A stretch of 28,687 nt of DNA from a virus (lineage: Duplodnaviria > Heunggongvirae > Uroviricota > Caudoviricetes), in IMG/VR virus record IMGVR_UViG_2861079508_000005, one strand, 5' to 3'. Shown piece after piece: positions 1,944 through 25,122 of the stretch. Under the pieces are notes generated by a model that was given only the letters and a program-made list of their open reading frames with translations, was not told the DNA's origin and did not search any database. Position 1 is the stretch's first letter. Each line of letters opens with the position of its first letter. The translations under genes and the position numbers were made by a program.

Positions 1944-1957
1944 TTTTCGTCACCTCC

Positions 1958-4405
1958 TTAACCGTCATGCATCATGCTGGCACGGGCGCGCGCACGTTTA
2001 TCCCGCTCGTATTTTTCGAGCGCATCCTGTAACTGGCGGTCGAGCTGAGTCCCCGGCGCAGTACCGCCCGTCAGACTGATGTGATATTCATTTTTACTCT
2101 GGTCCACATAAGAGCGGCCAGCCGGTGCCGTAACCGGCTGATAAGCCTGATAGCCTGCATAAGAGCTGGTCGCCGGAATATAACCACCGGTGCCATACGT
2201 GGCGGCATGAGTTCTGGCGGCGGTCTGGTCAAGTGTGTCTGACTCTTTGTTGATAACACCGAGTTTTTCCAGTACCCAGTCAATACCACTGCGCAGTTTG
2301 TTGAACGCATTAAGCGGCAGCATCAGCGCGTCAGCCAGTGCCTGCCCGAACATGACGCCCGTGTCACGGCAACGGTTCAGGGTGTCCTGGGTGGCTTTAA
2401 CCGGGGCGATCAGGTTTTTAAACCACTGCCACGCGGCCTGTAACTTTTCGCCCAGCCAGTCAAACACCGGCTTAAGTGGCGTGAACAGTTCCCCCACCGG
2501 CGCAAATGCCGCTTTCAGCCCTTCCACCACACCGCCAAAGAATGTGCTGACAGGCTCCCAGTATTTACGGATAAGCAACGCCCCGGCGACAATGGCGGCC
2601 ACCACGGCCACAACCGGCCAGCTAATCGCTCCGATGGCGGTCATAACAGCACTGCCAACCGTCGTGAAGATTGCCCCCATTGCGCCTGCTGCCGCGATGA
2701 TGGCATTGATGCCGGTGATAACCGGCCAGGCTACGAGGCCAATGGCACCGATGACACCAATCAGTGCCAGTGCACCACCGACAATGATGCCGATGGTTGA
2801 CGCCAGTGATTTGTTTTTCTGTATCCAGCCGTCGAGTTTTAACACATACTTTGTGGACGTCTGCGTGAGCTTACGCAGTGCGCCTTCCTGCTGGTCAAAC
2901 AGGTCAGTCCCCACCGCCTCATAAGCGGACTGAAACTCTTTAAAGTCACCGCCGAGGTTGTCCTGCATGATATTTACCAGCTCGGCGGTCTTCCCGTCTG
3001 AGGCTTTAAACGCAGCGGTCAGTTTGTCCAGCTTTCCGGTTGAGGCGGCAGTCATCAGCACGGCGGCGGCTGAGCTGGCCTCCTCCCCGAAAATAGTTTT
3101 CATGTATTCAGCCTGCTGGGCAGTACCGAGCCGGTTTCTCTCAAAACTGGCCTGCATTTCTTTCAGAATGGTAAATATTGGCCGGGTGTTTCCCTTGCTA
3201 TCTGAGGTTTTCACTCCAAGCTCTTTGAGTGCATCCCATGCTTTTCCCGTCGGTGCCTGCAGGCGACTTAACACGGCACGGCTTCCCGTCCCCGCCATTG
3301 AGCCTGTGATTTTTGCATCATGCAGCGCCCCGACCATTGCGGCGGTTTCTTCAATGCTGACACCGGCATTTTTTGCCACAGGTGCGGCATAGGTCAGCGC
3401 ATCGCTCATGCCGTCAAAATCGGCGGCGGTTTTGTTCATCGTCATGGAGAGAACATCCCCGATATGAGCGACCTTATCGTTTGAAAGCTGAAAGGCGGAT
3501 TTCATCCCCATCAGCAGGGCGGCGTTTTCTTCCATCGTGCGGCGGTTTGCCAGCGCCATATTCAGCGTGACCGGCGTTGCCGCCTGAATGGCATCAACAT
3601 CCCCACCCGCTTTCGCGATGATTATCTGTGCACCGGCCGCATCATCCGCCGAGGCGGCGGTATTGTCGCCGAGCTGGCGCGCCTGTTTGCGTAGTGCGGT
3701 CATTTCGGCGGAGTCTTTTGCCACTCCGAGCACGGCCTGCAATTCTGAGTTTTTCTGAGCAAACTCATAACCGGGCATCAGCAACTTAACTCCGGCCATC
3801 GTTCCCGCCGCCGCAATCCCCACACCGGCAGCGCCCACTGAGGCCATATTTCCGGCCAGTTCCTTTCCGGCCTGATAACGCTGTTTGACTGCGTTAAGTT
3901 TTGCCTGTTGCGCACTGACACGCGCCAGCGCGTCGCGCTGACGGTTAAGCTGTGTGGTGGTTTCACTGATACGGTTTTTCAGCCCTCGTTCATCATGCGC
4001 CAGATTACGGGTATTAATACCCGCCTGACTCAATTCCTGACGCTGGCGCTGTACCGACAATCTCAGGCTGTTATATTTCGCCTGTAACTCAGACGCATTT
4101 TTACGCGCGGCTTCCATTGCCTTTGCCTGTGCATTTGTCGGTCGTTCAGTATTTTTAAACTGGACAGCCAGAGCTGCGGCTTCCTGTCTGGCTTTTTTCA
4201 GTTCCTGACCAGTCACGGCGAGCTGTGCACTGGTCTTGCGAAATCCCTCAATACGGGATGCCTGACCGTTCAGCTCGCGCAGTGATTTTTGTGTTTCCCG
4301 GATATCCCCCGACAGCGATTTGCTCGCTGTGCGGATGGATTTAAACGGGCGGGATGCCTGGTCAACAGCCCTGAGCAATACCTGTAATTTTACATTGTTA
4401 CTCAT
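1958..4405 (-). CDS. T: tail tape measure protein gpT
   Basis: 815 aa; Ala/Gln/Arg-rich coiled-coil-like N-terminal half and Gly/Ala/Ile-rich hydrophobic central segment typical of tape measure proteins; located after E/E'. Confidence 0.85.
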   Translation of the reverse strand: MSNNVKLQVLLRAVDQASRPFKSIRTASKSLSGDIRETQKSLRELNGQASRIEGFRKTSAQLAVTGQELKKARQEAAALAVQFKNTERPTNAQAKAMEAARKNASELQAKYNSLRLSVQRQRQELSQAGINTRNLAHDERGLKNRISETTTQLNRQRDALARVSAQQAKLNAVKQRYQAGKELAGNMASVGAAGVGIAAAGTMAGVKLLMPGYEFAQKNSELQAVLGVAKDSAEMTALRKQARQLGDNTAASADDAAGAQIIIAKAGGDVDAIQAATPVTLNMALANRRTMEENAALLMGMKSAFQLSNDKVAHIGDVLSMTMNKTAADFDGMSDALTYAAPVAKNAGVSIEETAAMVGALHDAKITGSMAGTGSRAVLSRLQAPTGKAWDALKELGVKTSDSKGNTRPIFTILKEMQASFERNRLGTAQQAEYMKTIFGEEASSAAAVLMTAASTGKLDKLTAAFKASDGKTAELVNIMQDNLGGDFKEFQSAYEAVGTDLFDQQEGALRKLTQTSTKYVLKLDGWIQKNKSLASTIGIIVGGALALIGVIGAIGLVAWPVITGINAIIAAAGAMGAIFTTVGSAVMTAIGAISWPVVAVVAAIVAGALLIRKYWEPVSTFFGGVVEGLKAAFAPVGELFTPLKPVFDWLGEKLQAAWQWFKNLIAPVKATQDTLNRCRDTGVMFGQALADALMLPLNAFNKLRSGIDWVLEKLGVINKESDTLDQTAARTHAATYGTGGYIPATSSYAGYQAYQPVTAPAGRSYVDQSKNEYHISLTGGTAPGTQLDRQLQDALEKYERDKRARARASMMHDG

Positions 4406-6661: not shown

Positions 6662-7261
6662 CTATTTGTCCCGGTTGGCTAAGGGATGACACAATTTATT
6701 CTTTGTCGCTGATGAGGGGAATTTTTTATAGAGCGTGGACAGGCCAATATCAAAAATCAGCGCCACGCGTTGACGTGATTCACCCGCAGCCAGCAACCGT
6801 CCTGCCTGTTCCCACTCACTCGCGGTGAGCTTCGGACGTCTGCCACCAATACGACCTTTAGCTCTGGCCGCTTCCAGTCCGGCGCGTGTCCGCTCGACAA
6901 TGAGTTCTCGTTCCATTTCAGCCAGGGCACCCATCACATGAAAGAAAAAACGCCCCATCGGCGTGCTGGTATCAATAGCATCCGTCAGGCTGCGAAAATT
7001 AACGCCGCGTTCGCGCAGTTCCTCAACCAGAATGATCAGATGCCGCATACTACGCCCCAGCCTGTCCAGCTTCCAGACCACCAGTGTATCCCCCTCCGAT
7101 AATGTCCTGAGCAGTTTTTTCAGTCCCGGTCGGTCGGACTTAGTGCCGCTGATTTTATCCTCAAAAATCAGCTCACATCCTGCGCACTCCAGCGCGTTAC
7201 GCTGCAATTCCGTGTTCTGGTCATTTGTTGACACGCGTACATAGCCAATAAGCATGAGCAT
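6662..7261 (-). CDS. serine-type DNA invertase (Hin/Gin/Cin/Pin family)
   Basis: N-terminus LIGYVRVSTNDQNTELQRNAL with catalytic Ser, plus DRLGRS, GRFFFHVMGALAEMERELIVERT and a C-terminal HTH, all closely resembling Hin/Gin; true start probably ATG at 7255. Confidence 0.85.
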   Translation of the reverse strand: MLMLIGYVRVSTNDQNTELQRNALECAGCELIFEDKISGTKSDRPGLKKLLRTLSEGDTLVVWKLDRLGRSMRHLIILVEELRERGVNFRSLTDAIDTSTPMGRFFFHVMGALAEMERELIVERTRAGLEAARAKGRIGGRRPKLTASEWEQAGRLLAAGESRQRVALIFDIGLSTLYKKFPSSATKNKLCHPLANRDK

Positions 7262-7282
7262 CCCCCTGAATAAAAACCGGAG

Positions 7283-7789
7283 ATGATGCCAGTTGCCCGT
7301 TATCTCTGCATTTTCATAAACGTTGGTTTGGGAGAAGGTTCGGCATTACCCGTTGGTGTGCCTGTTCCGTGGCCTTCAGCCACACCGCCTACTGGCTGGC
7401 TGAAATGCAACGGTGCGGCTTTTTCTGCTGAAGAATACCCGGAACTGGCAAAGGTTTATCCGACAAATAAATTGCCTGATTTACGCGGTGAATTTATTCG
7501 TGGCTGGGATGACGGACGTGGAGTGGATGCCGGGCGACAATTATTATCTTCACAAGGGGATGCAATAAGAAATATTGAGGGATTCGCAGATGGCGGGATC
7601 GGTATGTCTTTTGATGCAATCAGAGGGGCTTTTTACGATGCAGGAACACGATCAGCGAGAATGCCGAATAACACAACTACTATAGACAAAACCGATGACC
7701 TTGGATTCGACGCCTCTCGTGTCGTGCCAACAGCTAATGAAAACCGTCCACGTAACATCGCCTTTAATTATATTGTGAGGGCTGCATAA
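7283..7789 (+). CDS. silent alternative tail-fibre C-terminal variable segment (no own start; expressed only after inversion)
   Basis: Contains PVPWPSATPPTGWLKCNGAAFSAEEYPELAKVYP...LPDLRGEFIRGWDDGRGVD, a phage tail-fibre tip (tail collar type) motif; the frame runs through the crossover site; functional part about 7325-7789. Confidence 0.65.
   Translation: MMPVARYLCIFINVGLGEGSALPVGVPVPWPSATPPTGWLKCNGAAFSAEEYPELAKVYPTNKLPDLRGEFIRGWDDGRGVDAGRQLLSSQGDAIRNIEGFADGGIGMSFDAIRGAFYDAGTRSARMPNNTTTIDKTDDLGFDASRVVPTANENRPRNIAFNYIVRAA
7311..7336. repeat. invertase crossover site, left (hix/gix-like, inverted relative to 9142-9167)
   Basis: Reverse complement reads TTCTCCCAAACC-AA-CGTTTATGAAAA; 15 nt identical to the right site; resembles hixL TTCTTGAAAACCAAGGTTTTTGATAA (from memory). 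Confidence 0.6.
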
Positions 7790-8382
7790 TGAAACCTTTT
7801 TTTGATGAAAATGGGCTGGCTACAGTACCGGGTAATATGCGTTGTTTTTATTATGAGGCAGTTACGTATGAATATACTGGCTGGTCTGATGAATATATTA
7901 ATACTGGCGTAAGTATGCCCGCCTGTTCCACTGGTATTGACCCGGGCGAATGCATTCCGGGGAAAGTGGCAGTATTTACGGGTAAGGGATGGAGCCATGA
8001 AGAAGACCACCGCAATGAGACTGTTTACTCAATCGAAAATGGCGCAGCTGTTACAGTGGATTATATCGGTGCCATCAAAGACGGTTATGTCACACTTTCA
8101 CCGTTAACGCCATACGATAAATGGGATGGTGAGAAATGGGTGACGGATACTGAGGCACAGCATAGTGCCGCAGTAGACGCGGCAGAAGCACAGCGCCAGT
8201 CGCTGATTGATGCAGCAATGGCTTCCATTAGTCTGATTCAGCTGAAATTACGGGCCGGACGGAAGTTGACGCAGGCAGAAACAACCAGACTTAACGCTGT
8301 GCTGGATTACATTGACGCGGTGACGGCAACAGATACCAGCACCGCGCCGGATGTCATCTGGCCTGAACTGCCGGAGGCGTAG
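7789..8382 (+). CDS. alternative tail fibre assembly protein (chaperone for the silent fibre tip)
   Basis: 197 aa ORF immediately after the silent fibre tip; C-terminus ...DTSTAPDVIWPELPEA parallels the gpG C-terminus ...DTSSAPDIEWPTPP; Mu U/U'-like arrangement. Confidence 0.65.
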   Translation: MKPFFDENGLATVPGNMRCFYYEAVTYEYTGWSDEYINTGVSMPACSTGIDPGECIPGKVAVFTGKGWSHEEDHRNETVYSIENGAAVTVDYIGAIKDGYVTLSPLTPYDKWDGEKWVTDTEAQHSAAVDAAEAQRQSLIDAAMASISLIQLKLRAGRKLTQAETTRLNAVLDYIDAVTATDTSTAPDVIWPELPEA

Positions 8383-8794
8383 GCCATTCAATATCTGGTG
8401 CACTGGAGGTATCAACCAGCTCCAGTGCATCCAGATAATCCAGCCACAAATTATATTGCGCCAGTTCCTCACCTTTCAGGCGACCAATCGCCGCTTTACC
8501 AAGCCATTGCTTTCTGTTTATGTATTCGTTGATCTGATTAATCAATTGCTGCTTTTCCAATTCGGCTGCGGCAATTTGTTCCTCATGAGTTGGCGGTGGA
8601 ATATCAATCCATGCAGGCATTCCGTCGATGACACCTCTGTATTTTCCTTCTGGTGCTTCCTTCATAAATTCGGCGGCAACAGTGTCGTCAATTTCGATTC
8701 CATCATCGGGCCATTCGCCGGATTCCTGATAAGCGATTTTAAGCTCCACAGGGAAAAACGCATTTTTATCGGCGCTGAAAATATATTTCTGCAT
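8354..8794 (-). CDS. G: tail fibre assembly protein gpG
   Basis: 146 aa ORF directly downstream of H; conserved C-terminal motif shared with the ORF at 7789-8382. Confidence 0.75.
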   Translation of the reverse strand: MQKYIFSADKNAFFPVELKIAYQESGEWPDDGIEIDDTVAAEFMKEAPEGKYRGVIDGMPAWIDIPPPTHEEQIAAAELEKQQLINQINEYINRKQWLGKAAIGRLKGEELAQYNLWLDYLDALELVDTSSAPDIEWPTPPAVQAR

Positions 8795-8796
8795 TT

Positions 8797-9981
8797 CTAC
8801 CGTCCTATCGAAATATAACTGAATCTGTATTGCTGTGAGATATCACTGGTTGCCACACGCCACGCTGAATTACTGATATGTTCAAAATTTACAGACAAAA
8901 CCTGCGGGGCAGGATTCGACGGGTCTGACTGAACGGCATCAGACATAACACTGACTGAAACCATCGGCTGATTAGGGAATGGTATAGGGAAGTGTCCACT
9001 GATAAAGCGGGTCGAGTTTCCTGAAAAAGTGCCAAACTGAACAATATATCCACCTGGTAGCCTGAACCATCCCGAACCAGAAGCGAATGCTCCCATATCC
9101 GGTATCTGATTATCTCCTGTGCCCACATCCCTTTTCGCCGCTTCTCCCAAACCAAGGTATGCGAGAAGACCGGCAACATCCTTCCCACTCAAATGAGTCA
9201 GCGTCTCATCCAGTGGCTGCTTACCTGACAGCGCATTGTTAATGGTGGTGCTGAATTTCGGGTCATTGTTAATGGCTGCGGCAATTTCTTTCAGTGTATC
9301 CAGCGTGGCAGGCGCACCGTTAATCAGAGCGGTAATAGCGGCCTGTACAAACGCAGTGGTCGCAATCCGCGTGGTGTTATTTCCTGCGGCAGGCGTCGGC
9401 GCTTTTGGTTCTCCGGTAAATGTCGGATTATGTTTCTGTGCATACTGGGTATGAGGATCCTGTGCGGCAATGTGGTTTCTCATCTGGTCATCCACATACA
9501 GCTTTAATTCCAGGACTTCATCATCCACGTATTTACGGGTCGCCAGTACCACCGACGGGTCGATTTTCAGCGTGATGGCTTCGGTATTCGTGACAACCAG
9601 AATCATGCGGATAGTCTGGGTACGACCGCTGCCTTCCTGCAACTGCGGTTTGTACGTTTCCGGGCAGTTCGCCACCGCAATGAGTACGCCTTCATCATCA
9701 TAAAGCCCAATCTCACGGATCCAGAATCCGCCCTCGTTCTCAGGGATGATTTGCTCCGCAATAATCTGGCTCTGGTTGTTCGGGTCAACACTCAGAAGAT
9801 TCAGCGGCGCGATGCGTTTCTGGTTAATCAGTTTTGTCTGTGCCGGGTCTGGTGTCGGCAAGACACCATTCGCATCACCAACGGCCATTTGCGTCAGATT
9901 CAGCTTACTGCCGAGCATCGTCGCGTTAGCCAGCCGTGCTGCGCCCTGATTAGTCAGAATGGCGTAGTATTTCACTGTCAT
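8797..9981 (-). CDS. H: tail fibre protein gpH (constant N-terminal part plus currently expressed variable tip)
   Basis: N-terminal region (...AVGD...GGFW.RE.GLYDD.G.LIAVAN..E.YKP.L.EGSGR.Q..RM) matches the conserved P2 H baseplate-attachment domain; 394 aa; the crossover site lies at codons about 272-280. Confidence 0.8.
   Translation of the reverse strand: MTVKYYAILTNQGAARLANATMLGSKLNLTQMAVGDANGVLPTPDPAQTKLINQKRIAPLNLLSVDPNNQSQIIAEQIIPENEGGFWIREIGLYDDEGVLIAVANCPETYKPQLQEGSGRTQTIRMILVVTNTEAITLKIDPSVVLATRKYVDDEVLELKLYVDDQMRNHIAAQDPHTQYAQKHNPTFTGEPKAPTPAAGNNTTRIATTAFVQAAITALINGAPATLDTLKEIAAAINNDPKFSTTINNALSGKQPLDETLTHLSGKDVAGLLAYLGLGEAAKRDVGTGDNQIPDMGAFASGSGWFRLPGGYIVQFGTFSGNSTRFISGHFPIPFPNQPMVSVSVMSDAVQSDPSNPAPQVLSVNFEHISNSAWRVATSDISQQYRFSYISIGR
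9142..9167. repeat. invertase crossover site, right (hix/gix-like)
   Basis: TTCTCCCAAACC-AA-GGTATGCGAGAA inside H; encodes LLAYLGLGE in the H frame. Confidence 0.6.
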
Positions 9982-18741: not shown

Positions 18742-18914
18742 TGTCAGGAGTCCTGAATAGTGATTAGAGGAGTCACATGTCGGCATCAGTTTCCCGACGA
18801 TGCGCATCCTCCGCCATCAGTCCCGGATGGCTTATCACTGACACAACAGCACCTTAGCGAATCGCGGGGCGCGACTCAGTAGCCTTGCCGTGTATTCATC
18901 ACGGCGAGGTATTC
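18742..18914. promoter_or_regulatory. divergent late promoter region for O (leftward) and P (rightward), expected Ogr-dependent
   Basis: Non-coding interval between divergent O and P starts; by analogy with P2 late promoters; individual -10/-35 and Ogr sites not resolved by eye. Confidence 0.4.
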
Positions 18915-20687
18915 ATGACCATCACCACAGACACCACTCTTTTACACGACCCGCGTCGTCAGGCGGCGCTGCTGTACTGGCAGGGGTTTTCCGTGCCGCA
19001 GATTGCCGCCATGTTGCAGATGAAACGCCCGACGGTGCAGAGCTGGAAACAGCGCGACGGCTGGGACAGCGTTGCCCCCATCAGCCGTGTCGAAATGAGT
19101 CTGGAAGCGCGGCTGACCCAGCTCATCATCAAACCGCAGAAAACCGGCGGTGACTTCAAGGAAATTGACCTGCTGGGACGCCAGATTGAACGGCTGGCGC
19201 GGGTCAACCGCTACAGTCAGACCGGCAACGAGGCAGACCTTAATCCGAACGTCGCTAACCGCAACAAAGGCGGGCGTCGCAAACCGAAAAAGAATTTTTT
19301 CAGTGACGAGGCCATCGAAAAGCTGGAGCAGATTTTCTTTGAGCAGTCTTTCGACTATCAGTTGCACTGGTATCGCGCCGGGCTTGAGCACCGCATCCGC
19401 GATATCCTGAAATCCCGCCAGATTGGCGCGACGTTTTATTTTTCCCGCGAGGCGCTGCTGCGCGCCCTGAAAACCGGTCATAACCAGATTTTTCTGTCGG
19501 CCAGTAAAACGCAGGCGTATGTGTTCCGCGAATACATCATCGCCTTTGCCCGGCTGGTTGACGTTGACCTGACCGGTGACCCGATTGTCCTGGGCAATAA
19601 CGGCGCAAAACTGATTTTTCTCGGCACCAACTCCAACACCGCGCAGAGCCATAACGGCGACCTGTACGTCGACGAGATTTTCTGGATCCCGAATTTTCAG
19701 GTACTGCGTAAGGTGGCATCAGGTATGGCCTCACAAAGTCACCTGCGCTCGACTTATTTCTCCACCCCGTCCACGCTGGCGCACGACGCCTACCCGTTCT
19801 GGTCAGGTGAACTGTTCAACCGGGGACGCGCCAGCGCCGCCGAACGCGTGGAAATCGACGTCAGTCATAACGCCCTTGCCGGTGGGCTTCTCTGTGCGGA
19901 CGGCCAGTGGCGGCAGATTGTCACCATTGAGGATGCCCTGAAAGGCGGCTGCACGCTGTTCGACATTGAGCAGCTCAAACGCGAAAACAGCGCCGACGAT
20001 TTTAAAAACCTGTTCATGTGTGAATTTGTTGACGACAAGGCGTCGGTGTTCCCGTTCGAGGAGCTGCAACGCTGCATGGTCGACACACTGGAAGAATGGG
20101 AAGACTATGCGCCGTTTGCCGCCAATCCGTTCGGCTCCCGCCCGGTATGGATTGGTTACGACCCGTCACACCGTGGCGACAGCGCCGGATGCGTGGTACT
20201 GGCACCGCCGGTGGTGGCCGGTGGCAAATTCAGAATACTTGAGCGTCACCAGTGGAAAGGCATGGACTTTGCCACCCAGGCGGAATCCATCCGCAAACTC
20301 ACCGAAAAATATAACGTCGAATACATCGGTATTGATGCCACCGGCCTCGGTGTCGGCGTGTTCCAGCTCGTGCGCTCGTTCTATCCCGCCGCGCGCGACA
20401 TCCGCTACACGCCGGAAATGAAAACCGCAATGGTGCTCAAGGCAAAAGACGTTATCCGTCGTGGCTGTCTGGAATACGACGTCAGCGCCACCGACATCAC
20501 CAGCTCGTTTATGGCTATCCGCAAGACCATGACCAGCAGCGGACGCAGCGCCACCTATGAGGCCAGCCGCAGCGAGGAAGCCAGCCACGCCGACCTCGCC
20601 TGGGCAACCATGCACGCCCTGTTAAATGAGCCACTCACCGCCGGTATCAGCACCCCGCTGACATCCACCATTCTGGAGTTTTACTGA
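18915..20687 (+). CDS. P: terminase large subunit gpP
   Basis: 590-codon ORF from MTITTD (the track ORF is N-extended); divergent from O; followed by Q. Confidence 0.8.
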   Translation: MTITTDTTLLHDPRRQAALLYWQGFSVPQIAAMLQMKRPTVQSWKQRDGWDSVAPISRVEMSLEARLTQLIIKPQKTGGDFKEIDLLGRQIERLARVNRYSQTGNEADLNPNVANRNKGGRRKPKKNFFSDEAIEKLEQIFFEQSFDYQLHWYRAGLEHRIRDILKSRQIGATFYFSREALLRALKTGHNQIFLSASKTQAYVFREYIIAFARLVDVDLTGDPIVLGNNGAKLIFLGTNSNTAQSHNGDLYVDEIFWIPNFQVLRKVASGMASQSHLRSTYFSTPSTLAHDAYPFWSGELFNRGRASAAERVEIDVSHNALAGGLLCADGQWRQIVTIEDALKGGCTLFDIEQLKRENSADDFKNLFMCEFVDDKASVFPFEELQRCMVDTLEEWEDYAPFAANPFGSRPVWIGYDPSHRGDSAGCVVLAPPVVAGGKFRILERHQWKGMDFATQAESIRKLTEKYNVEYIGIDATGLGVGVFQLVRSFYPAARDIRYTPEMKTAMVLKAKDVIRRGCLEYDVSATDITSSFMAIRKTMTSSGRSATYEASRSEEASHADLAWATMHALLNEPLTAGISTPLTSTILEFY

Positions 20688-21721
20688 TGAGCAAGAAAAA
20701 AGGGAAAACACCGCAACCTGCGGCGAAAAAAATGACCGCCAGCGCCCCGAAAATGGAGGCATTCACCTTTGGTGATCCGGTGCCGGTACTCGACCGCCGT
20801 GACATTCTGGATTACGTCGAGTGCATCAGTAACGGCAGATGGTATGAGCCACCGGTCAGCTTTACCGGTCTGGCAAAAAGCCTGCGTGCTGCCGTGCATC
20901 ACAGCTCACCGATTTACGTTAAACGCAATATTCTGGCCTCGACATTTATCCCGCATCCGTGGCTTTCCCAGCAGGATTTCAGCCGCTTTGTGCTGGATTT
21001 TCTGGTGTTCGGTAATGCGTTTCTGGAAAAGCGTTACAGCACTACCGGTAAGGTCATCAGACTGGAAACCTCACCGGCAAAATATACCCGCCGTGGCGTG
21101 GAGGAGGATGTTTACTGGTGGGTGCCGTCCTTCAACGAGCCGACACCTTTCGCGCCCGGCTCCGTGTTTCACCTGCTGGAGCCGGATATTAATCAGGAGC
21201 TGTACGGTCTGCCGGAATATCTCAGCGCCCTTAATTCTGCCTGGCTGAATGAGTCGGCCACGCTGTTCCGCCGCAAGTATTACGAAAACGGCGCTCATGC
21301 CGGATATATCATGTACGTCACTGATGCCGTGCAGGATCGCAACGATATCGAAATGCTCCGCGAAAACATGGTGAAGTCGAAAGGCCGCAACAACTTTAAA
21401 AACCTGTTTCTCTATGCCCCACAGGGGAAAGCCGACGGCATTAAAATTATCCCCCTCAGTGAAGTGGCGACGAAGGACGATTTTTTTAATATCAAAAAAG
21501 CCAGCGCCGCTGACCTGCTGGACGCACACCGCATCCCCTTTCAGTTGATGGGCGGCAAGCCGGAGAACGTCGGGTCACTGGGCGATATTGAGAAAGTGGC
21601 AAAGGTCTTTGTCCGCAATGAGCTTATCCCGTTACAGGACAGGATTCGGGAAATAAACGGCTGGCTCGGTCAGGAGGTCATCCGCTTTAAAAACTACTCA
21701 CTGGACACCGACAACGGCTGA
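20687..21721 (+). CDS. Q: portal protein gpQ
   Basis: 344 aa; start overlaps the P stop (ATGA); last gene before cos. Confidence 0.8.
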   Translation: MSKKKGKTPQPAAKKMTASAPKMEAFTFGDPVPVLDRRDILDYVECISNGRWYEPPVSFTGLAKSLRAAVHHSSPIYVKRNILASTFIPHPWLSQQDFSRFVLDFLVFGNAFLEKRYSTTGKVIRLETSPAKYTRRGVEEDVYWWVPSFNEPTPFAPGSVFHLLEPDINQELYGLPEYLSALNSAWLNESATLFRRKYYENGAHAGYIMYVTDAVQDRNDIEMLRENMVKSKGRNNFKNLFLYAPQGKADGIKIIPLSEVATKDDFFNIKKASAADLLDAHRIPFQLMGGKPENVGSLGDIEKVAKVFVRNELIPLQDRIREINGWLGQEVIRFKNYSLDTDNG

Positions 21722-21726
21722 ACATC

Positions 21727-21748
21727 GCCGCCTGCGGGCGGCTTTTTT
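21727..21748 (+). terminator. rho-independent terminator after Q
   Basis: GC hairpin GCCGCC-TGCG-GGCGGC followed by TTTTTT, 5 nt after the Q stop. Confidence 0.6.
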
Positions 21749-21890
21749 ACACCCCGTCATCACGCCCTCACACGCTCACCACCGCACAAAACACCCCGCA
21801 GACACACCAACGCCCCGGCGCACAATCCAAACGCCGTCACGACGCGCTGAGACGCTGAAAAAATAAAATCAGCACCACCGCCAGCGCGCA

Positions 21891-21909
21891 GTGCTTTCCC
21901 CGCCTCGCC
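21891..21909. other. cos cohesive-end site (19 nt)
   Basis: GTGCTTTCCCCGCCTCGCC is the reverse complement of GGCGAGGCGGGGAAAGCAC, which I recall as the P2 cohesive end; lies between Q and the early region as expected. Confidence 0.55.
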
Positions 21910-22193
21910 CGCCCGCTTCACGGGGCGGTTTTAATGCAGTTGCATAGATACTATGGATCCGCACCAGTCCTGACCGCACGCAGCCTGAACGGACATCCCC
22001 AGCGCATGCAAAAACATTCACTTGTTGCATGCATAGCTTTTTAAGTACGCCATACCGCAACTGTACATTTTTAAGCAATTGGCAACTTTAAAAAATTTAC
22101 ATTGCTTTCAAGACCTTATCATCCGTAGTCTCTGTTTTTTACTTTGAGCTACATCAATAAAATCTCAAACATGTTTAATGCAAAGCCCTTGTT

Positions 22194-22243
22194 ACACAAC
22201 ATAGAATGTATGTCTAGAAACAACGACATACTATATGTTGTGT
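22194..22243 (+). other. long imperfect hairpin followed by a T-tract (possible operator or sRNA/terminator structure)
   Basis: ACACAACATA pairs perfectly with TATGTTGTGT, plus an inner 7-bp stem GTATGTC/GACATAC, a 10-nt apical loop, then TTTTT at 22244-22248. Confidence 0.4.
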
Positions 22244-22309
22244 TTTTCCGGCTCTCTGTTCGGTGATATGCCAAATCACTTTGCGTTTAAACAGAGCATT
22301 ATTTCAGGG

Positions 22310-22324
22310 CAAGACTTCGCTCAA
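22310..22324 (+). repeat. 15-bp direct repeat copy 1 (CAAGACTTCGCTCAA)
   Basis: Identical 15-mer recurs at 22574-22588; the two copies flank the small ORF and terminator. Confidence 0.6.
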
Positions 22325-22387
22325 AAGTCATTCCACCTAACAAGCGCATATACCGGTGGAAGTTGCCCTCTACTTACAGGAGGCAAT

Positions 22388-22501
22388 ATGAAGAAATGCT
22401 ATTACTGCATTCTCGTTCTGGCCCTCTTTGGCTATCCAAACGGTAGTCCGAGTGGTTTGTCAGTAAACGTCAGTAATATCAATGTCAGCATTATGCTTTA
22501 A
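22388..22501 (+). CDS. hypothetical small hydrophobic protein (37 aa), candidate cargo gene
   Basis: AGGAGG 4 nt upstream of ATG; MKKCYYCILVLALFGYPNGSPSGLSVNVSNINVSIML; terminator immediately downstream; no homology recognised. Confidence 0.35.
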   Translation: MKKCYYCILVLALFGYPNGSPSGLSVNVSNINVSIML

Positions 22502-22513
22502 TATGCTTCAAAC

Positions 22514-22543
22514 AAAAAAACCACCTGCCAGGGTGGTTTTTTT
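22514..22543. terminator. bidirectional rho-independent terminator (A-tract / GC hairpin / T-tract)
   Basis: AAAAAAA-CCACCTG-CC-AGGGTGG-TTTTTTT; can terminate the small ORF transcript on the plus strand and the early operon after A on the minus strand. Confidence 0.6.
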
Positions 22544-22573
22544 GCGCCCATCATCAATACGATGAAAGACTGA

Positions 22574-22588
22574 CAAGACTTCGCTCAA
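22574..22588 (+). repeat. 15-bp direct repeat copy 2 (CAAGACTTCGCTCAA)
   Basis: Identical to 22310-22324. Confidence 0.6.
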
Positions 22589-22803
22589 GACGAATTATGC
22601 GTCGACATAAGGTTACCCGCAATGATTTTATTAGACTAAATGGATGGCCTTTTATGACCCGGATCAAACGGCTGTCCTTACCGACATGCTAGTCACTCAA
22701 TAGCATTTAGCCTTCTAATTCAGCATGCTATTGACCTTCTGCTGCCCCATAACTGCTCCGCATAAGCCATTCAATGCCATATCAAATCACGTTGTGTTTT
22801 TAC

Positions 22804-25122
22804 TCAAATGGGTAACGAGAACCCCGGCCACACATCAGCGACCAGATACGTGAATTTTTTTCCGTCATAATTTACGGTTGCTCCACGCGCCAGCGCCTCA
22901 AGTTCCCATCGCTGAGGCCAGATGCCGTTCTGAGCAAGGTCAACACGGATACGGGTAATTTGCATACGCTCCGACCGGGTCAGCCTGGCCGATGGCGCTA
23001 TTTCATTCGGTTTTAACGGGCTTCCGTTTCTTTGCTGACGGTTTGGTGTTCTCAGGCCGTGTTTTAATGCGCCCCTGAGCGCCCTCACGACCTCCGGGTC
23101 ATTCCATTCGATAACACCGTCATCAACCAGATTAAGCACGGCTGCGGCGCGCTCAGAAGGTGTGGGAGCCGGTAACGAAGTATCACCACCGGTGAGCTTT
23201 CCACAGTTATTGACAGGACTCCGAGGCGCGGCGATGCCGCTTTTTAAAGTCAAAGGCTCAACGACCGGAACTTTCGGCACAATGCGCCAGTCCGTGGTTC
23301 TGGTGATATGAATATGACGCGCGCCGAGATGCGGCGCGTAAATGCCGACCACTCTCTCGACCTCTTCCTCGTACTCGTTAACGTCATCCGACGGGCTACG
23401 GGCGACTCTGACAGTCTGACAATCGCGCGGAACATTTGCCCCACCCTGCGCGCTGATATACAACGCAAAATCACCACTGTCTGCGGCGGCGCGTGCAGCC
23501 TCGACGCGCTCGTCAAACTCATCAGCAATGCTGACGCCGCGAGGCAATTTGCGTAGTTCACGGTAAGCCCCCATTGTCGGCAGGCCAACCGTTTTAAATT
23601 GCGGAATGCGCCACGTTGACGCCCATGCGGTAACAGCCGCGGCAGTATCTTTCAGCGGTCTGCCGGTATCGTTATCGAGCTGCCCATCCAGTGCATAGCC
23701 GTCGATATTTTTTGAGATGTATTTCGCGATATACCCCGCAGCACCGCCCCGGTTAAGATGTTTTGCCTGAAAACGGTTTCGCGCGGCTCCTCTTTCGTCG
23801 CCATCCTCTTTGAGCGCATAGCGACGCATGATTTCGATAATCTGGTTACGCTGGCGTGGATTACAAAAAAGCATCATATGCCAGTGCGGCGTTCCGTCGT
23901 GGTGTGGCTCGACGACACGCAAACCGTAGGCCTGTAAATCATTATCCTTGAATGCCGTGCGCATCAGGCTCCAGATACGGCAGAGATAACGCTGCGCATC
24001 CTTTGGATTAAATGCCTCATCGTTCCAGCCGTGATTAAGCTGAACGGTTTTACTTTCGCCTTTTCCGACCTGACGTGTCGGGTGATACTTTGACGGCGCG
24101 GTCAGCGTGATAAACATCCCCACATCACCCTCTGCAGCGGCGTAACGCTCAATACCGGCAATGGTGTTCATCAGCTCCATCCGGCGAATTTCAGGATTAG
24201 AAATACTGCCCATCACCTTACTGATAAGGTCGATGCGCTCGCCGGTTTCCTTATTTTCAAGGTCACACGATTTAAGAAATTCCAGATTTGCCTGGCGGCG
24301 TGCACGCACATCACGAATGGCATGTTTACTGGCATAAGGAGAACGGTCTTTATTGACCTCCCCGACAGCAATCAGTAACGCCTCATGCCAGCGCATACGC
24401 TGGCCTTTAAGCTGATGAGTCCACCACTCATCGTTAAACAGACGGGCAATGGCAGAATATGCCTGCCTCGTGGTCATCTGCCCTTTACGGTATTTTTTCC
24501 AGTAGAGAGGGGAAATATTGAAAGCTCGTGCAGCGCCAGCAACATGACCATACAGGTGAGCCTGCGCCTCATCCGTAAACAGCGATTCTTTCTCGCCATG
24601 CGCATCCACCCAGGCATCGCAGAGTTCCTCATACATCATGAAAAGCTGTGATGAGATACGGGCGGCAAACTTTTTCAGCTCCTTGTCATTCATTCCAGGC
24701 AAACGCGCATAATGGTCACGCTCTGCCAGAAACAGCAACGACGCGTCGGTGTTCATTTCATGGCGCTGATTCACACGCTCAATGCGCGGCCATAAACGAC
24801 GCTGAAAAGTGGATGTGAGGAAATAAAACCCGTGCACCGGGCTTTTATTGCGCCGGATGTAGTCATAGCGTGAAGTAAACAGCGAGCGCAAAAAGTAAGG
24901 CAGGCGATTAATCGTGGATAAAACACCTTGCACCTGACGCATCTCGTCACGTGTAAGGGGTCTTTCGCGCCCGACGGCCTCGCGTGGCGCGTTCCATGCA
25001 TAAGCACCGGTAAACGTCTCACCGGTGCCTGCGGCAAATGCTGACGGAGGGACAAAACGCCCGGAGGCTTTAACGGCCATATGAGCCAAAAGCCTCTGAA
25101 CAACGCTTGCTGAGTTGCTCAA
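22804..25122 (-). CDS. A: replication initiation protein gpA (rolling-circle nicking endonuclease)
   Basis: 772 aa ORF; N-terminal sequence MAVKASGRFVPPSAFAAGTG...AYAWNAPREAVGRERPLTRDEMRQ matches my recollection of P2 A; true start possibly the internal ATG at 25080. Confidence 0.85.
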   Translation of the reverse strand: MSNSASVVQRLLAHMAVKASGRFVPPSAFAAGTGETFTGAYAWNAPREAVGRERPLTRDEMRQVQGVLSTINRLPYFLRSLFTSRYDYIRRNKSPVHGFYFLTSTFQRRLWPRIERVNQRHEMNTDASLLFLAERDHYARLPGMNDKELKKFAARISSQLFMMYEELCDAWVDAHGEKESLFTDEAQAHLYGHVAGAARAFNISPLYWKKYRKGQMTTRQAYSAIARLFNDEWWTHQLKGQRMRWHEALLIAVGEVNKDRSPYASKHAIRDVRARRQANLEFLKSCDLENKETGERIDLISKVMGSISNPEIRRMELMNTIAGIERYAAAEGDVGMFITLTAPSKYHPTRQVGKGESKTVQLNHGWNDEAFNPKDAQRYLCRIWSLMRTAFKDNDLQAYGLRVVEPHHDGTPHWHMMLFCNPRQRNQIIEIMRRYALKEDGDERGAARNRFQAKHLNRGGAAGYIAKYISKNIDGYALDGQLDNDTGRPLKDTAAAVTAWASTWRIPQFKTVGLPTMGAYRELRKLPRGVSIADEFDERVEAARAAADSGDFALYISAQGGANVPRDCQTVRVARSPSDDVNEYEEEVERVVGIYAPHLGARHIHITRTTDWRIVPKVPVVEPLTLKSGIAAPRSPVNNCGKLTGGDTSLPAPTPSERAAAVLNLVDDGVIEWNDPEVVRALRGALKHGLRTPNRQQRNGSPLKPNEIAPSARLTRSERMQITRIRVDLAQNGIWPQRWELEALARGATVNYDGKKFTYLVADVWPGFSLPI

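What the first reader, a model, noticed from the sequence alone, without database searches (positions are those of the whole stretch)
22388..22501. Candidate 37-aa hydrophobic peptide gene with strong Shine-Dalgarno and its own terminator
AGGAGG sits 4 nt upstream of an ATG that opens MKKCYYCILVLALFGYPNGSPSGLSVNVSNINVSIML, with a hydrophobic N-terminal half. A GC hairpin with flanking A and T tracts follows 13 nt after the stop. The architecture resembles small membrane-toxin or exclusion peptides carried as phage morons, but I recognise no similarity to Hok, Ldr, TisB, Ibs or ShoB. A small protein in a known defence hotspot is worth testing.
Basis: seen in the sequence. Interest (0 to 1): 0.55.

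Follow-up and report, generated by a model that had tools for sequence, protein, structure and literature searches.

The report
Unannotated small toxin with RNA antidote
The 37-codon reading frame is a real, conserved small-protein gene with a previously unnoticed small antisense RNA gene beside it, which together look like a new family of RNA-controlled toxin-antitoxin modules found in P2-like prophages and on hundreds of Klebsiella plasmids.

Summary
AGGAGG (22378-83), ATG 22388, a 37-aa ORF, TAA 22499-501 and a bidirectional terminator (22514-43) are all there.

The ORF is a real coding gene. About 20 peptide variants of 37-39 aa exist in E. coli P2-like prophages and in plasmids of Klebsiella, Enterobacter, Salmonella, Leclercia, Kluyvera and Citrobacter. 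Pooled pS is 0.56 against pN 0.17 (Fisher 6e-20), in this frame only.

It sits in a roughly 575-nt module (22093-22667). The module also has a structured leader of about 175 nt with covarying helices. On the opposite strand there is a roughly 74-nt sRNA gene (22587 to 22514) with a conserved sigma-70 promoter, a covarying hairpin that is more stable on that strand, and the shared terminator.

The sRNA 5' end pairs for 14-18 bp with the leader 64-81 nt upstream of the ATG. Seed and target covary, with three concerted changes in one subfamily and G.U intermediates elsewhere.

No Pfam, NCBIfam, PHROGs, PADLOC or Rfam family matches, and RefSeq does not annotate it.

Best reading: a new type I toxin-antitoxin family, closest in architecture to TimP/TimR. 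Toxicity and any defence or addiction role are inferred, not shown.

The parts
22093..22667 (.). Whole conserved module: toxin transcription unit plus convergent sRNA unit.
   Evidence: This is the extent of homology to Klebsiella and other plasmids at 71-75% identity (query 4-578 of 22090-22720). Alignment A1 shows the same block.
22093..22178 (+). Conserved upstream block of unknown role (AATTTACA .. TCTGTAC .. TTTTTACTTTG .. ATCAATAAAA).
   Evidence: The motifs are conserved in A1 and in distant homologues. Its function was not established.
22179..22207 (+). Putative promoter of the peptide mRNA: TGCAAA (22179-84), 17 nt, TAGAAT (22202-07). The start is inferred near 22214.
   Evidence: TA[AG]AAT and the (T)GATGCAAA block are conserved in 13 diverse homologues while the spacer varies. 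The -35 is weak and the scan did not call it. This part is inferred.
22214..22387 (+). Structured 5' leader of about 175 nt.
   Evidence: In the four tested helices 83% of cells are paired, against 42-52% when partners are slid. 13 pairs changed on both sides, and 0 of 500 shuffles reached this. The whole mRNA folds with z = -4.15.
22254..22296 (+). Leader hairpin: outer stem CTCTGTT/AACAGAG, inner stem GTGAT/ATCAC, conserved loop UGCCA.
   Evidence: Helices 1 and 2 are 93% and 100% paired, with 5 and 2 pairs changed on both sides.
22308..22323 (+). Target site in the leader (GGCAAGACTTCGCTCA). It is direct repeat copy 1, complementary to the sRNA 5' end, and lies 65-80 nt upstream of the ATG.
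   Evidence: the repeat finder D2. RNAduplex gives -29.1 kcal/mol for 16 bp, against -13.9 +/- 2.3 for shuffled seeds, and the position is the same in all complete homologues. Covariation with repeat copy 2 is shown.
22306..22369 (+). Long-range leader helix AGGGCAA (22306-12) with TTGCCCT (22363-69). It encloses the helix TTCCACC (22331-37) / GGTGGAA (22355-61), and its 5' strand overlaps the sRNA target.
   Evidence: A fully pairing hexamer sits 24-26 nt upstream of the ATG in 12 of 12 leaders, with 5 different sequences. Shuffled controls score 23%. The enclosed helix is 80% paired with 4 pairs changed on both sides.
22378..22383 (+). Shine-Dalgarno AGGAGG, 4 nt before the ATG.
   Evidence: GGAGG-like sequence is kept at the same place in most homologues.
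22388..22501 (+). Gene for the 37-aa peptide MKKCYYCILVLALFGYPNGSPSGLSVNVSNINVSIML (putative toxin).
   Evidence: There are 24 distinct nucleotide versions, all intact at 37-39 codons. Pairwise dN/dS is 0.08-0.35 for most informative pairs. Pooled pS 0.56 against pN 0.17, p = 6e-20, in this frame only.
22514..22543 (.). Bidirectional intrinsic terminator (A7-CCACC-TGCCAG-GGTGG-T7), shared 3' end of both transcripts.
   Evidence: (I2) and the folds. It is invariant in the homologues, though the wider scans were anchored on it.
22514..22587 (-). Predicted sRNA of about 74 nt (putative antitoxin): unpaired 5' seed (22572-22587), a covarying hairpin, then the terminator.
   Evidence: Fold z = -4.24. 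The consensus structure has an unpaired seed and 5 hairpin pairs changed on both sides. The hairpin is more stable on this strand in 20 of 21 variants, -8.6 against -5.1 kcal/mol. The ends are inferred from the promoter and terminator.
22594..22633 (-). sRNA promoter on the minus strand: -10 CATAAT (22599 to 22594), 17-nt spacer, -35 TTGCGG (22622 to 22617), A/T-rich stretch upstream.
   Evidence: Both hexamers and their distance to the seed are conserved in all homologues, while the 17-18-nt spacer is not.

Best explanation
The ORF is the protein-coding part of a compact, portable type I toxin-antitoxin-like module at about 22093-22667. A plus-strand mRNA of about 330 nt starts near 22214. 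It carries a structured leader of about 175 nt and the 37-aa peptide gene, and ends at the terminator at 22514-43. The peptide has a basic N-terminus, an invariant Cys followed by a short hydrophobic core, and a polar Ser/Asn-rich C-terminal half with alternating hydrophobic residues. A sRNA of about 74 nt is made from the minus strand, from its own sigma-70 promoter, and ends at the same terminator read in the other direction. Its unpaired 5' end pairs for 14-18 bp with the leader 64-81 nt upstream of the start codon, overlapping one strand of a conserved long-range leader helix. I infer that this pairing keeps the peptide from being made. It could do so by remodelling the leader, by blocking a ribosome loading site, or by provoking cleavage. 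I also infer that the peptide harms the cell envelope once the short-lived sRNA is lost. That would stabilise the plasmid or prophage carrying the module, or abort infection by another phage. What is shown here by comparative analysis: the gene is under protein-level purifying selection; the sRNA has a promoter, a structure and strand polarity; the seed and target covary; the leader is structured. What is inferred: transcription itself, repression, toxicity, membrane targeting and biological role.
For: Coding. Start, SD and length (37-39 aa) are kept in 24 distinct nucleotide versions from prophages and plasmids of at least 7 genera. NG86 dN/dS is 0.08-0.35 for most informative pairs. Pooled over six independent pairs, pS is 0.56 against pN 0.17, p = 6e-20. 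The shifted frames give ratios of 0.96 and 1.71, and every other frame carries stops in nearly all homologues.

sRNA. TTGC[GCT]N, then 17-18 variable nt, then CATAAT, then 6 nt, then the seed, in all homologues. The consensus fold has a free 5' end, 5 hairpin pairs changed on both sides, and many U.G pairs that would be C.A on the other strand. The hairpin is more stable on the minus strand in 20 of 21 variants. In L014 a 900-bp insertion separates the two units and each keeps its own copy of the terminator.

Pairing. Duplexes score -25.6 to -34 kcal/mol, against about -15 +/- 2.5 for shuffled seeds, always at the same leader position. In subfamily B both copies read GGTAAGGCTTTGCTCA instead of GGCAAGACTTCGCTCA, three concerted changes. 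L045 has GACAAG paired with CUUGUC. The window, L015, L021 and L065 differ only by G.U-compatible transitions. The metagenome and viral scans did not constrain the seed.

Leader. 83% of cells paired against 42-52% slid, and 0 of 500 shuffles reached the observed value. The long-range helix is kept in 12 of 12 leaders with 5 different sequences.

Context. The module is in 151 of 5426 complete E. coli genomes. In all 48 P2-like loci its terminator is 292-294 nt from the gpA end, while the cargo on the cos side varies. It is on 423 plasmids, 394 of them Klebsiella and 351 conjugative. It lies 0.8-1.2 kb from a dinQ/AgrB type I locus on pJ53-KPC_Vir. TimP/TimR is a precedent for a 38-aa toxin with an N-terminal signal-like segment repressed by a sRNA that pairs in the 5'UTR (PMC7667032, PMC11228461).
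Against: I found no expression, toxicity or localisation data for this module. The K. pneumoniae MGH 78578 transcriptome and RIL-seq tables did not help, because the module is absent from the plasmid parts I could fetch. The hydrophobic core is only 11-15 residues, short for a transmembrane helix. The single-sequence AlphaFold model has low confidence, pLDDT 60.6. The mRNA promoter has a weak -35 and was not called by the consensus scan. A thermodynamic test of one specific mechanism, sRNA binding freeing an anti-SD, was inconclusive: SD accessibility fell in only 5 of 12 homologues. The proposed anti-SD helix is only 58% paired. The terminator was used as the search anchor, so its invariance in the wider set is partly by construction. 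Identical direct repeats could in principle be kept alike by gene conversion.
Confidence: 0.66

Rival explanations
1. It is a real small protein gene controlled by the sRNA, but the protein is not a toxin. It could be a small envelope protein with a benign or specific role, such as superinfection exclusion, a membrane regulator, or a secreted or processed peptide. The sRNA would then simply tune its level.
For: All the coding and sRNA evidence fits this equally well. TimP at native level does not stop growth (PMC7667032). The short hydrophobic core followed by a polar half looks more like a signal or anchor than a classic pore-forming helix. The location in the P2 GpA-GpQ hotspot suits an exclusion factor (PMC9122126, PMC13586616).
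Against: A dedicated antisense RNA, a long structured leader, and carriage on plasmids next to other addiction modules are the typical signature of products that must be kept off. The family has spread across plasmids and phages as a self-contained two-gene cassette.
Confidence: 0.24
2. The 15-nt direct repeats are DNA-level features rather than an RNA-RNA pairing pair. They could be protein-binding sites, recombination sites, or the duplicated target of a small inserted element carrying the ORF and terminator.
For: Two exact 15-nt copies flank a 264-nt unit. Their identity could be maintained by gene conversion.
Against: Copy 2 sits exactly 6 nt downstream of a conserved -10 on the opposite strand, at the start of a structured, terminated transcript. 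Every observed difference between the two copies inside the duplex is a transition that keeps a G.U pair on the predicted RNA strands (3 of 3). In L014 the second copy travels with the sRNA unit, not with the ORF.
Confidence: 0.04
3. The ORF is not translated, and the region is a purely non-coding structured RNA whose conservation mimics a gene.
For: RefSeq's PGAP annotates nothing here. Gene callers have predicted this protein only about 20 times among 5.8 billion clusters. The flanking non-coding parts are also strongly conserved.
Against: There is a frame-specific excess of synonymous change, p = 6e-20, which is absent in the other frames. Variable sites by codon position are 22, 13 and 33. 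The reading frame stays open in sequences too diverged for blastn to align.
Confidence: 0.03
4. It is a leader peptide with an attenuator that controls a downstream gene.
For: A short ORF followed at 12 nt by a terminator resembles attenuators. Rfam gives weak Phe_leader hits, E = 0.09-0.34 and 23-26 bits against a threshold of 55.
Against: No gene follows on the plus strand: the next gene is gpA, on the opposite strand. There is no run of regulatory codons. The weak Rfam hits, like those to RNAI, all rest on the terminator hairpin.
Confidence: 0.01

Closest known systems
TimP/TimR (ryfA locus) type I toxin-antitoxin of enterobacteria (NCBIfam NF040796, Rfam RF00126; PMC7667032, PMC11228461)
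   Same: Both encode a peptide of about 38-41 aa whose hydrophobic residues sit in the N-terminal, signal-like part, followed by a polar Asn/Ser-rich C-terminal half. Both have a dedicated sRNA from a neighbouring gene on the other strand, whose 5' region pairs with the 5'UTR well upstream of the RBS at a conserved position. Both have a structured leader. The N-termini look alike: MKIRCFCIVLIV in TimP against MNRLCLCILVLT here.
   Different: There is no detectable homology. BLASTP finds nothing at E <= 100. The TimP model scores TimP at 87 bits but none of 15 family members at E <= 10. hhalign gives 6% probability over 10 columns. RyfA is not found by Rfam even at E <= 10. TimR lies upstream and is divergent, whereas here the sRNA lies downstream, is convergent, and shares a bidirectional terminator. 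timPR is chromosomal core-like, whereas this module rides on plasmids and phages.
tisB/istR-1, zorO/orzO, shoB/ohsC and dinQ/agrB class of E. coli type I systems
   Same: In all of them a small hydrophobic peptide sits behind a long structured 5'UTR. The sRNA comes from a separate nearby gene rather than a full antisense overlap. It has a short stretch of complementarity, about 16-30 nt, to a leader site far from the SD, so repression is indirect (background in PMC11228461, PMC3919570). dinQ/agrB also shows the repeat logic, and it lies next to this module on one plasmid.
   Different: The peptide and RNA sequences are unrelated: no Pfam, NCBIfam or Rfam hit. The sRNA here is convergent and downstream, not divergent and upstream. 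No LexA box was evident, though I did not test this rigorously. The peptide lacks the single long helix typical of TisB, ZorO and DinQ.
hok/sok family (plasmid R1 and relatives)
   Same: Both are RNA-controlled small-toxin cassettes on conjugative plasmids and prophages. Hok/sok has known roles in post-segregational killing, and from my own knowledge also in exclusion of phage T4. Both have a highly structured toxin mRNA.
   Different: Hok is about 50 aa with a different sequence family. Sok overlaps the mok leader in cis. Translation is coupled to a leader ORF. None of these features is seen here.
ColE1-type RNAI
   Same: The terminator hairpin with its A and T tracts is identical to that at the RNAI/ori region of some ColE1-like plasmids (L012, L013, L017). 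This produces weak Rfam RNAI hits on both strands at 24-25 bits.
   Different: The hits are far below the threshold of 47 bits. Nothing else of RNAI or RNAII is present and there is no replication context.

Membership tests
Type I toxin-antitoxin system (general class) | Small protein (under about 60 aa) with a hydrophobic, membrane-directed segment. | tested here: met
   The peptides are 37-39 aa with a basic N-terminus and a hydrophobic core of 11-15 residues. The Kyte-Doolittle window peaks at 3.0. The core is short for a classic transmembrane helix.
Type I toxin-antitoxin system (general class) | A small antisense RNA gene in the same locus, complementary to the toxin mRNA. | tested here: met
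   It has a conserved promoter, a covarying hairpin, a terminator and a strand-specific stability signal. It pairs for 14-18 bp with the leader, and seed and target covary. This is comparative evidence only, and the transcripts have not been observed.
Type I toxin-antitoxin system (general class) | The sRNA represses translation or stability of the toxin mRNA. | not testable with these tools
   It needs reporter fusions with compensatory mutations. A thermodynamic proxy for one possible mechanism was inconclusive.
Type I toxin-antitoxin system (general class) | The protein is growth-inhibitory when made without the sRNA. | not testable with these tools
   No experimental data were found.
Type I toxin-antitoxin system (general class) | Structured toxin mRNA leader that limits translation. 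| tested here: inconclusive
   The leader structure is well supported and the SD region is predicted to be mostly paired, mean unpaired probability 0.34. No single conserved anti-SD helix could be defined: helix 4 is 58% paired.
TimP (NCBIfam NF040796) / RyfA (Rfam RF00126) | Sequence match to the TimP protein model or the RyfA RNA model. | tested here: not met
   None of 15 family members hits at E <= 10, while TimP itself scores 86.8 bits. BLASTP finds nothing. hhalign gives 6% probability. Rfam finds no RyfA hit at E <= 10.
TimP/TimR | The sRNA gene lies upstream of the toxin gene and is divergent from it. | tested here: not met
   Here the sRNA gene is downstream and convergent and shares the terminator. 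The K-12 layout is shown.
Hok, Ldr, TisB, Ibs, ShoB, DinQ, ZorO toxins and their sRNAs | Match to the Pfam or NCBIfam toxin models, or to the Rfam antitoxin models. | tested here: not met
   There are no protein family hits at E <= 10. Rfam finds nothing at gathering score in the window or in five diverse homologous loci, apart from the neighbouring AgrB in L004. OrzO-P scores only 21 bits against a threshold of 60, on the terminator.
Known anti-phage defence systems (PADLOC-DB) and phage protein families (PHROGs) | Match to a model of a described system or family. | tested here: not met
   PADLOC gives 0 hits. PHROGs gives only E >= 0.23.
Leader peptide / transcription attenuator | A short ORF and terminator upstream of a regulated gene on the same strand. 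| tested here: not met
   There is no downstream plus-strand gene, since gpA is convergent. Phe_leader scores 23-26 bits against a threshold of 55.

The most novel reading that the evidence does not exclude
The GpA-GpQ hotspot of this prophage looks empty, yet its only occupant is this unannotated two-gene RNA/peptide cassette. On the most novel reading, the cassette acts as a minimal abortive-infection or addiction device. Its toxin would belong to a new mechanistic type: exported or anchored by a signal-like N-terminus, with a periplasmic amphipathic beta-strand tail. In subfamily B the tail ends like an outer-membrane-protein beta-signal (...SLTVQFY, ...SIQVF), so it might attack the envelope from the periplasmic side rather than forming an inner-membrane helix pore. 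The convergent sRNA sharing a terminator, and also embedded in the 3' region downstream of the phage early operon, would link toxin release to the state of phage and host transcription.
Probability: 0.12. Interest if true: 0.8.

Novelty: new member of a known kind. Interest (0 to 1): 0.58.

Why it matters
If confirmed, this adds a new family to the short list of enterobacterial type I toxin-antitoxin systems. Current annotation misses it completely: RefSeq shows nothing at this site in 151 complete E. coli genomes. It sits on about 400 Klebsiella plasmids, many of them large conjugative plasmids, including one from a liver-abscess isolate and a KPC-named plasmid, so it could contribute to plasmid persistence. 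It also shows that a P2 defence hotspot that appears empty by gene annotation can hold a functional small-gene and sRNA cassette, which matters for surveys of hotspot content. Finally, the natural seed and target variants (types A and B, plus G.U intermediates) give a ready-made specificity test for sRNA-mRNA recognition.

Tried and rejected
1. Rfam at gathering score on the whole window and on five homologous loci, and at E <= 10 on 21722-22900. There were only weak matches driven by the terminator (RNAI, Phe_leader, OrzO-P and others) and the neighbouring AgrB.

2. Pfam, NCBIfam, PHROGs and PADLOC with up to 15 family members gave nothing.

3. Homology to TimP was considered because of the look-alike N-terminus. 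BLASTP, the TimP HMM and hhalign all rejected it.

4. The longer 88-aa ORF from 22235 was rejected, because the extension is not conserved.

5. An anti-SD release switch was tested by constrained partition-function folding and was inconclusive, with 5 of 12 in the expected direction. My hand-drawn anti-SD helix is poorly supported at 58% paired.

pLDDT was 60.6, so it was not used.

7. I looked for expression evidence. Full-text searches for the peptide and for the seed or terminator strings found nothing relevant. The K. pneumoniae SGH10 RIL-seq paper has no supplements held. In the MGH 78578 dRNA, RIP and RIL-seq tables, the candidates KpnR_127 and KpnR_128 turned out to flank hok, KpnR_124 is unrelated, and the module is absent from the fetched parts of pKPN3 and pKPN4, which I did not scan completely.

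8. The Fozo et al. 2010 candidate search shows no sign of this family in the passages retrieved.

9. The consensus promoter and terminator scan found neither the terminator nor either promoter I propose. It did report a plus-strand CTGACA-17-AATTAT at 22570-22598, which overlaps repeat 2. I read AATTAT as the complement of the conserved minus-strand -10.
Full report
**Setting**

The window is a P2-like (Peduovirus) prophage of E. coli.
- The terminase ATPase gene is at 18885-20687 (+) and the portal gene at 20687-21721 (+).
- The replication endonuclease GpA gene is at 22804-25122 (-).
- Cox, a C-type repressor and the integrase lie further right.
- An invertible tail-fibre segment with a resolvase lies at 6662-7261.

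The finding lies in the 1,082-nt gap between portal/cos and gpA. This gap is the GpA-GpQ defence hotspot of P2-like phages (PMC9122126, PMC13586616). RefSeq annotates no gene there in this or in any of the near-identical E. coli genomes.

**Observation**

- AGGAGG is at 22378-83, followed by 4 nt and ATG at 22388.
- The ORF is 37 codons and ends at TAA 22499-501.
- 12 nt later comes a perfect 13-nt inverted repeat (22513-25 / 22532-44).
- A7 and T7 tracts flank the repeat, making it a terminator in both directions.

**Is it a gene?**

The 301 nt around the ORF occur in 151 of 5,426 complete E. coli genomes and in three phage records. They also occur, at 71-75% identity, on 423 plasmids. Of these, 394 are from Klebsiella and 351 are conjugative.

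Further copies came from three scans: species-representative genomes, metagenomes and viral contigs. The first used the terminator alone as the pattern. The other two used the terminator plus the -10 of the flanking promoter, leaving everything between unconstrained.

Across this set there are 24 distinct nucleotide versions of the ORF, and all are intact at 37-39 codons. They encode about 20 different peptides in two subfamilies:
- Subfamily A, for example MNRLCLCILVLTLFGYPVGSQSGWSVNVSHINVNISL.
- Subfamily B, for example MDRRDCMCLFILTLISHLITGQESWMVYLNHISLTVQFY.

Subfamily B has diverged so far that blastn aligns only the flanks, yet the frame, the SD and the length persist.

Nei-Gojobori estimates give dN/dS of 0.08-0.35 for most informative pairs, with synonymous sites often saturated. 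I pooled six phylogenetically independent pairs:

| Frame | pS | pN | pN/pS | Fisher p |
|---|---|---|---|---|
| ORF frame | 0.56 | 0.17 | 0.30 | 6e-20 |
| Shifted +1 | 0.26 | 0.25 | 0.96 | 0.75 |
| Shifted +2 | 0.16 | 0.28 | 1.71 | 0.0096 |

The other five frames carry stops in nearly all homologues. The in-frame upstream extension to 88 aa seen in the window is not conserved. This is a protein-coding gene.

**What surrounds it**

Alignment of the phage and plasmid copies shows that a block of about 575 nt (22093-22667) is conserved as a unit. Its non-coding parts are conserved as strongly as the ORF. Three features stand out.

*1. A 15-nt direct repeat.* CAAGACTTCGCTCAA occurs at 22310-24, 64 nt upstream of the ATG, and again at 22574-88, just beyond the terminator.

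*2. A promoter and a structured RNA on the minus strand.*
- Immediately beyond the second copy, every homologue has TTGC[GCT]N, then 17-18 non-conserved nt, then CATAAT, then 6 nt, and then the complement of the repeat, with an A/T-rich stretch upstream.
- That is the signature of a sigma-70 promoter driving a minus-strand RNA that would end at the bidirectional terminator.
- In the window the predicted RNA runs from 22587 to 22514, about 74 nt.
- It folds well (z = -4.24).
- Its consensus structure has an unpaired 5' 17 nt, a 7-bp hairpin in which 5 pairs change on both sides, and the terminator.
- The hairpin contains many U.G pairs and is more stable on the minus strand in 20 of 21 variants (-8.6 against -5.1 kcal/mol). 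This points to the minus strand as the transcribed one.
- In one Enterobacter contig (L014) a 900-bp insertion separates the ORF unit from this unit, and each retains a copy of the terminator. They are therefore two separate transcription units.

*3. A structured leader upstream of the ORF.*
- One hairpin has a conserved UGCCA loop (93% and 100% paired).
- A second helix is TTCCACC/GGTGGAA (80% paired).
- Together with a poorly supported anti-SD helix, these helices give 83% of cells paired against 42-52% for slid controls. Across all four, 13 pairs changed on both sides, and 0 of 500 shuffles reached this.
- A long-range helix joins the 5' edge of repeat 1 to a segment 24-26 nt upstream of the ATG. 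It is kept in 12 of 12 leaders with five different sequences, against 23% in controls.
- A conserved TA[AG]AAT preceded at 17 nt by TGCAAA (22179-22207) is the likely mRNA promoter. That would give a leader of about 175 nt. This part is inferred, and the -35 is weak.

**The repeat is an RNA-RNA interaction site**

The sRNA begins with the complement of repeat 2, so its 5' end is complementary to repeat 1 in the leader. RNAduplex gives 14-18 bp and -25.6 to -34 kcal/mol in every complete module. Shuffled seeds give about -15 +/- 2.5. The target always sits 64-83 nt upstream of the ATG.

The two copies covary:
- All subfamily B modules have GGTAAGGCTTTGCTCA at both sites, which is three concerted changes.
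- L045 has GACAAG in the leader and CUUGUC in the sRNA.
- Where the two copies differ inside the duplex (the window itself, L015, L021 and L065), the difference is always a transition that leaves a G.U pair on the predicted RNA strands.

The metagenome and viral scans did not constrain the seed, so this pattern is not an artefact of the search.

**Mechanism**

The layout is that of a type I toxin-antitoxin locus. It resembles the kind in which a separately encoded sRNA pairs with a short leader segment far from the ribosome binding site (tisB/istR-1, zorO/orzO, dinQ/agrB, timP/timR; PMC11228461, PMC3919570, PMC7667032).

The target overlaps the 5' strand of the long-range helix that closes the leader domain next to the SD, so sRNA binding should remodel the region in front of the RBS. 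I tested one concrete version of this, release of an anti-SD, by constrained folding. It was not supported: 5 of 12 homologues moved in the expected direction. The SD region was predicted to be mostly paired in both states.

The step from pairing to repression therefore remains open. It could be standby-site blocking, a structural switch or RNase III cleavage.

**The peptide**

The peptide has a basic N-terminus, an invariant Cys opening an 11-15-residue hydrophobic core, a G-Y-P / G-S-Q-S-G-W turn-like centre, and a Ser/Asn-rich tail in which hydrophobic residues alternate. This looks like a signal-anchor with a periplasmic tail, as described for TimP, rather than a single long helix. The single-sequence AlphaFold model is of low confidence and I did not use it.

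**Comparison with what is known**

- No Pfam, NCBIfam, PHROGs or PADLOC model matches any of 15 members.
- No Rfam family reaches threshold in the window or in five diverse loci. The only hit is the AgrB of a neighbouring dinQ locus on one plasmid.
- A phmmer pass over 1.84 billion representative proteins found 7 relatives. A profile search of 5.8 billion clusters found 20. All are unnamed or labelled 'hypothetical protein'.
- TimP (MKIRCFCIVLIVSG...) resembles the N-terminus, but it fails every homology test and its sRNA is arranged differently.
- Full-text searches for the peptide and RNA strings found nothing relevant.

I therefore file this as a new family of a known kind. One unusual layout feature is a convergent sRNA that shares a bidirectional terminator yet acts on the 5' leader through a duplicated 15-mer.

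**Context and role**

In all 48 P2-like loci the module's terminator lies 292-294 nt from the end of gpA, while the distance to the portal gene varies from about 795 to 3,450 nt. The module is thus a fixed feature at the gpA edge of the hotspot, and variable cargo is inserted on the cos side. In the window it is the only occupant.

Because the sRNA unit lies downstream of gpA on the same strand and before the terminator, read-through of the early operon would also contain the sRNA sequence. This is an inference.

On plasmids the module lies among insertion sequences and other addiction genes (dinQ/agrB, ccdB). Post-segregational stabilisation or abortive infection are plausible roles, but neither has been tested.

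**Confidence**

| Claim | Confidence |
|---|---|
| The ORF is a real coding gene | about 0.95 |
| The sRNA exists and pairs with the leader | about 0.85 |
| The pair works as toxin and antitoxin | about 0.6-0.65 |

No direct expression data could be found. The one accessible Klebsiella transcriptome and interactome data set concerns a strain whose fetched plasmid parts lack the module.

Noticed in passing
window 22514-22543; L012, L013, L017: The terminator AAAAAACCACCTGCCAGGGTGGTTTTTT is identical to the hairpin at the RNAI/origin region of several ColE1-like plasmids (Klebsiella sp. WOUb02, Tatumella ptyseos). This explains the weak Rfam RNAI hits on both strands. I do not know whether it reflects shared ancestry, recombination or convergence.
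   Followed up: partly
window 22093-22178: A conserved block upstream of the putative mRNA promoter (AATTTACA, TCTGTAC, TTTTTACTTTG, ATCAATAAAA) is kept even in the most distant homologues. A small palindrome, TGATGCAAATCA, overlaps the weak -35 in most homologues (TAATGCAAAGCC in the window). This could be a regulator binding site or a second promoter.
   Followed up: no
L014 (Enterobacter MAG), reverse strand about 1947-3600: An insertion of about 900 bp carrying another ORF splits the peptide gene from the sRNA unit. The terminator is duplicated, so each unit keeps one copy. The SD of this copy is weak (CAGGAC).
   Followed up: partly
L004 (pJ53-KPC_Vir) 2761-3235: A dinQ toxin gene and an Rfam-confirmed AgrB antitoxin RNA lie 0.8-1.2 kb from the module, so two unrelated type I loci sit side by side on a Klebsiella-type plasmid.
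   Followed up: partly
L007 (E. coli strain 439) 2793-3421: This copy is a recombinant. The peptide half matches the L006 type and the sRNA half matches the window type, with the switch near the terminator. The seed is the same in both types, so pairing is preserved.
   Followed up: partly
P0002, P0093, P0094, P0095: Occasional damaged alleles exist: one with stop-codon loss giving 68 aa, and Salmonella copies with the C-terminal half replaced. They are rare compared with intact copies.
   Followed up: no
window 21722-22040: The cos-proximal stretch after the portal gene carries two strong plus-strand terminator-like hairpins (21727-21742, 21909-21928). It is shared with about 2,160 E. coli genomes, far more than carry the module.
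   Followed up: no
window 6662-8818: A resolvase-type invertase (6662-7261, minus strand) lies next to oppositely oriented tail-collar and tail-fibre-assembly ORFs. This suggests an invertible host-range segment at the position of the second P2 hotspot.
   Followed up: partly
window 22570-22598: The consensus scan reports a plus-strand promoter-like site, CTGACA-17-AATTAT, overlapping repeat 2. It would point into the 3' end of gpA. I interpret AATTAT as the complement of the conserved minus-strand -10, but a plus-strand start antisense to gpA is not excluded.
   Followed up: no
L065 (IMGVR_UViG_3300011594_000020): A divergent subfamily A copy (MKRLSYCIILLTLLGYPLGSQSGWSVDISNISVSIVM) sits on a viral contig with no GpA or portal homologue within the fetched locus. 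The module may therefore also occur in a different phage type.
   Followed up: no
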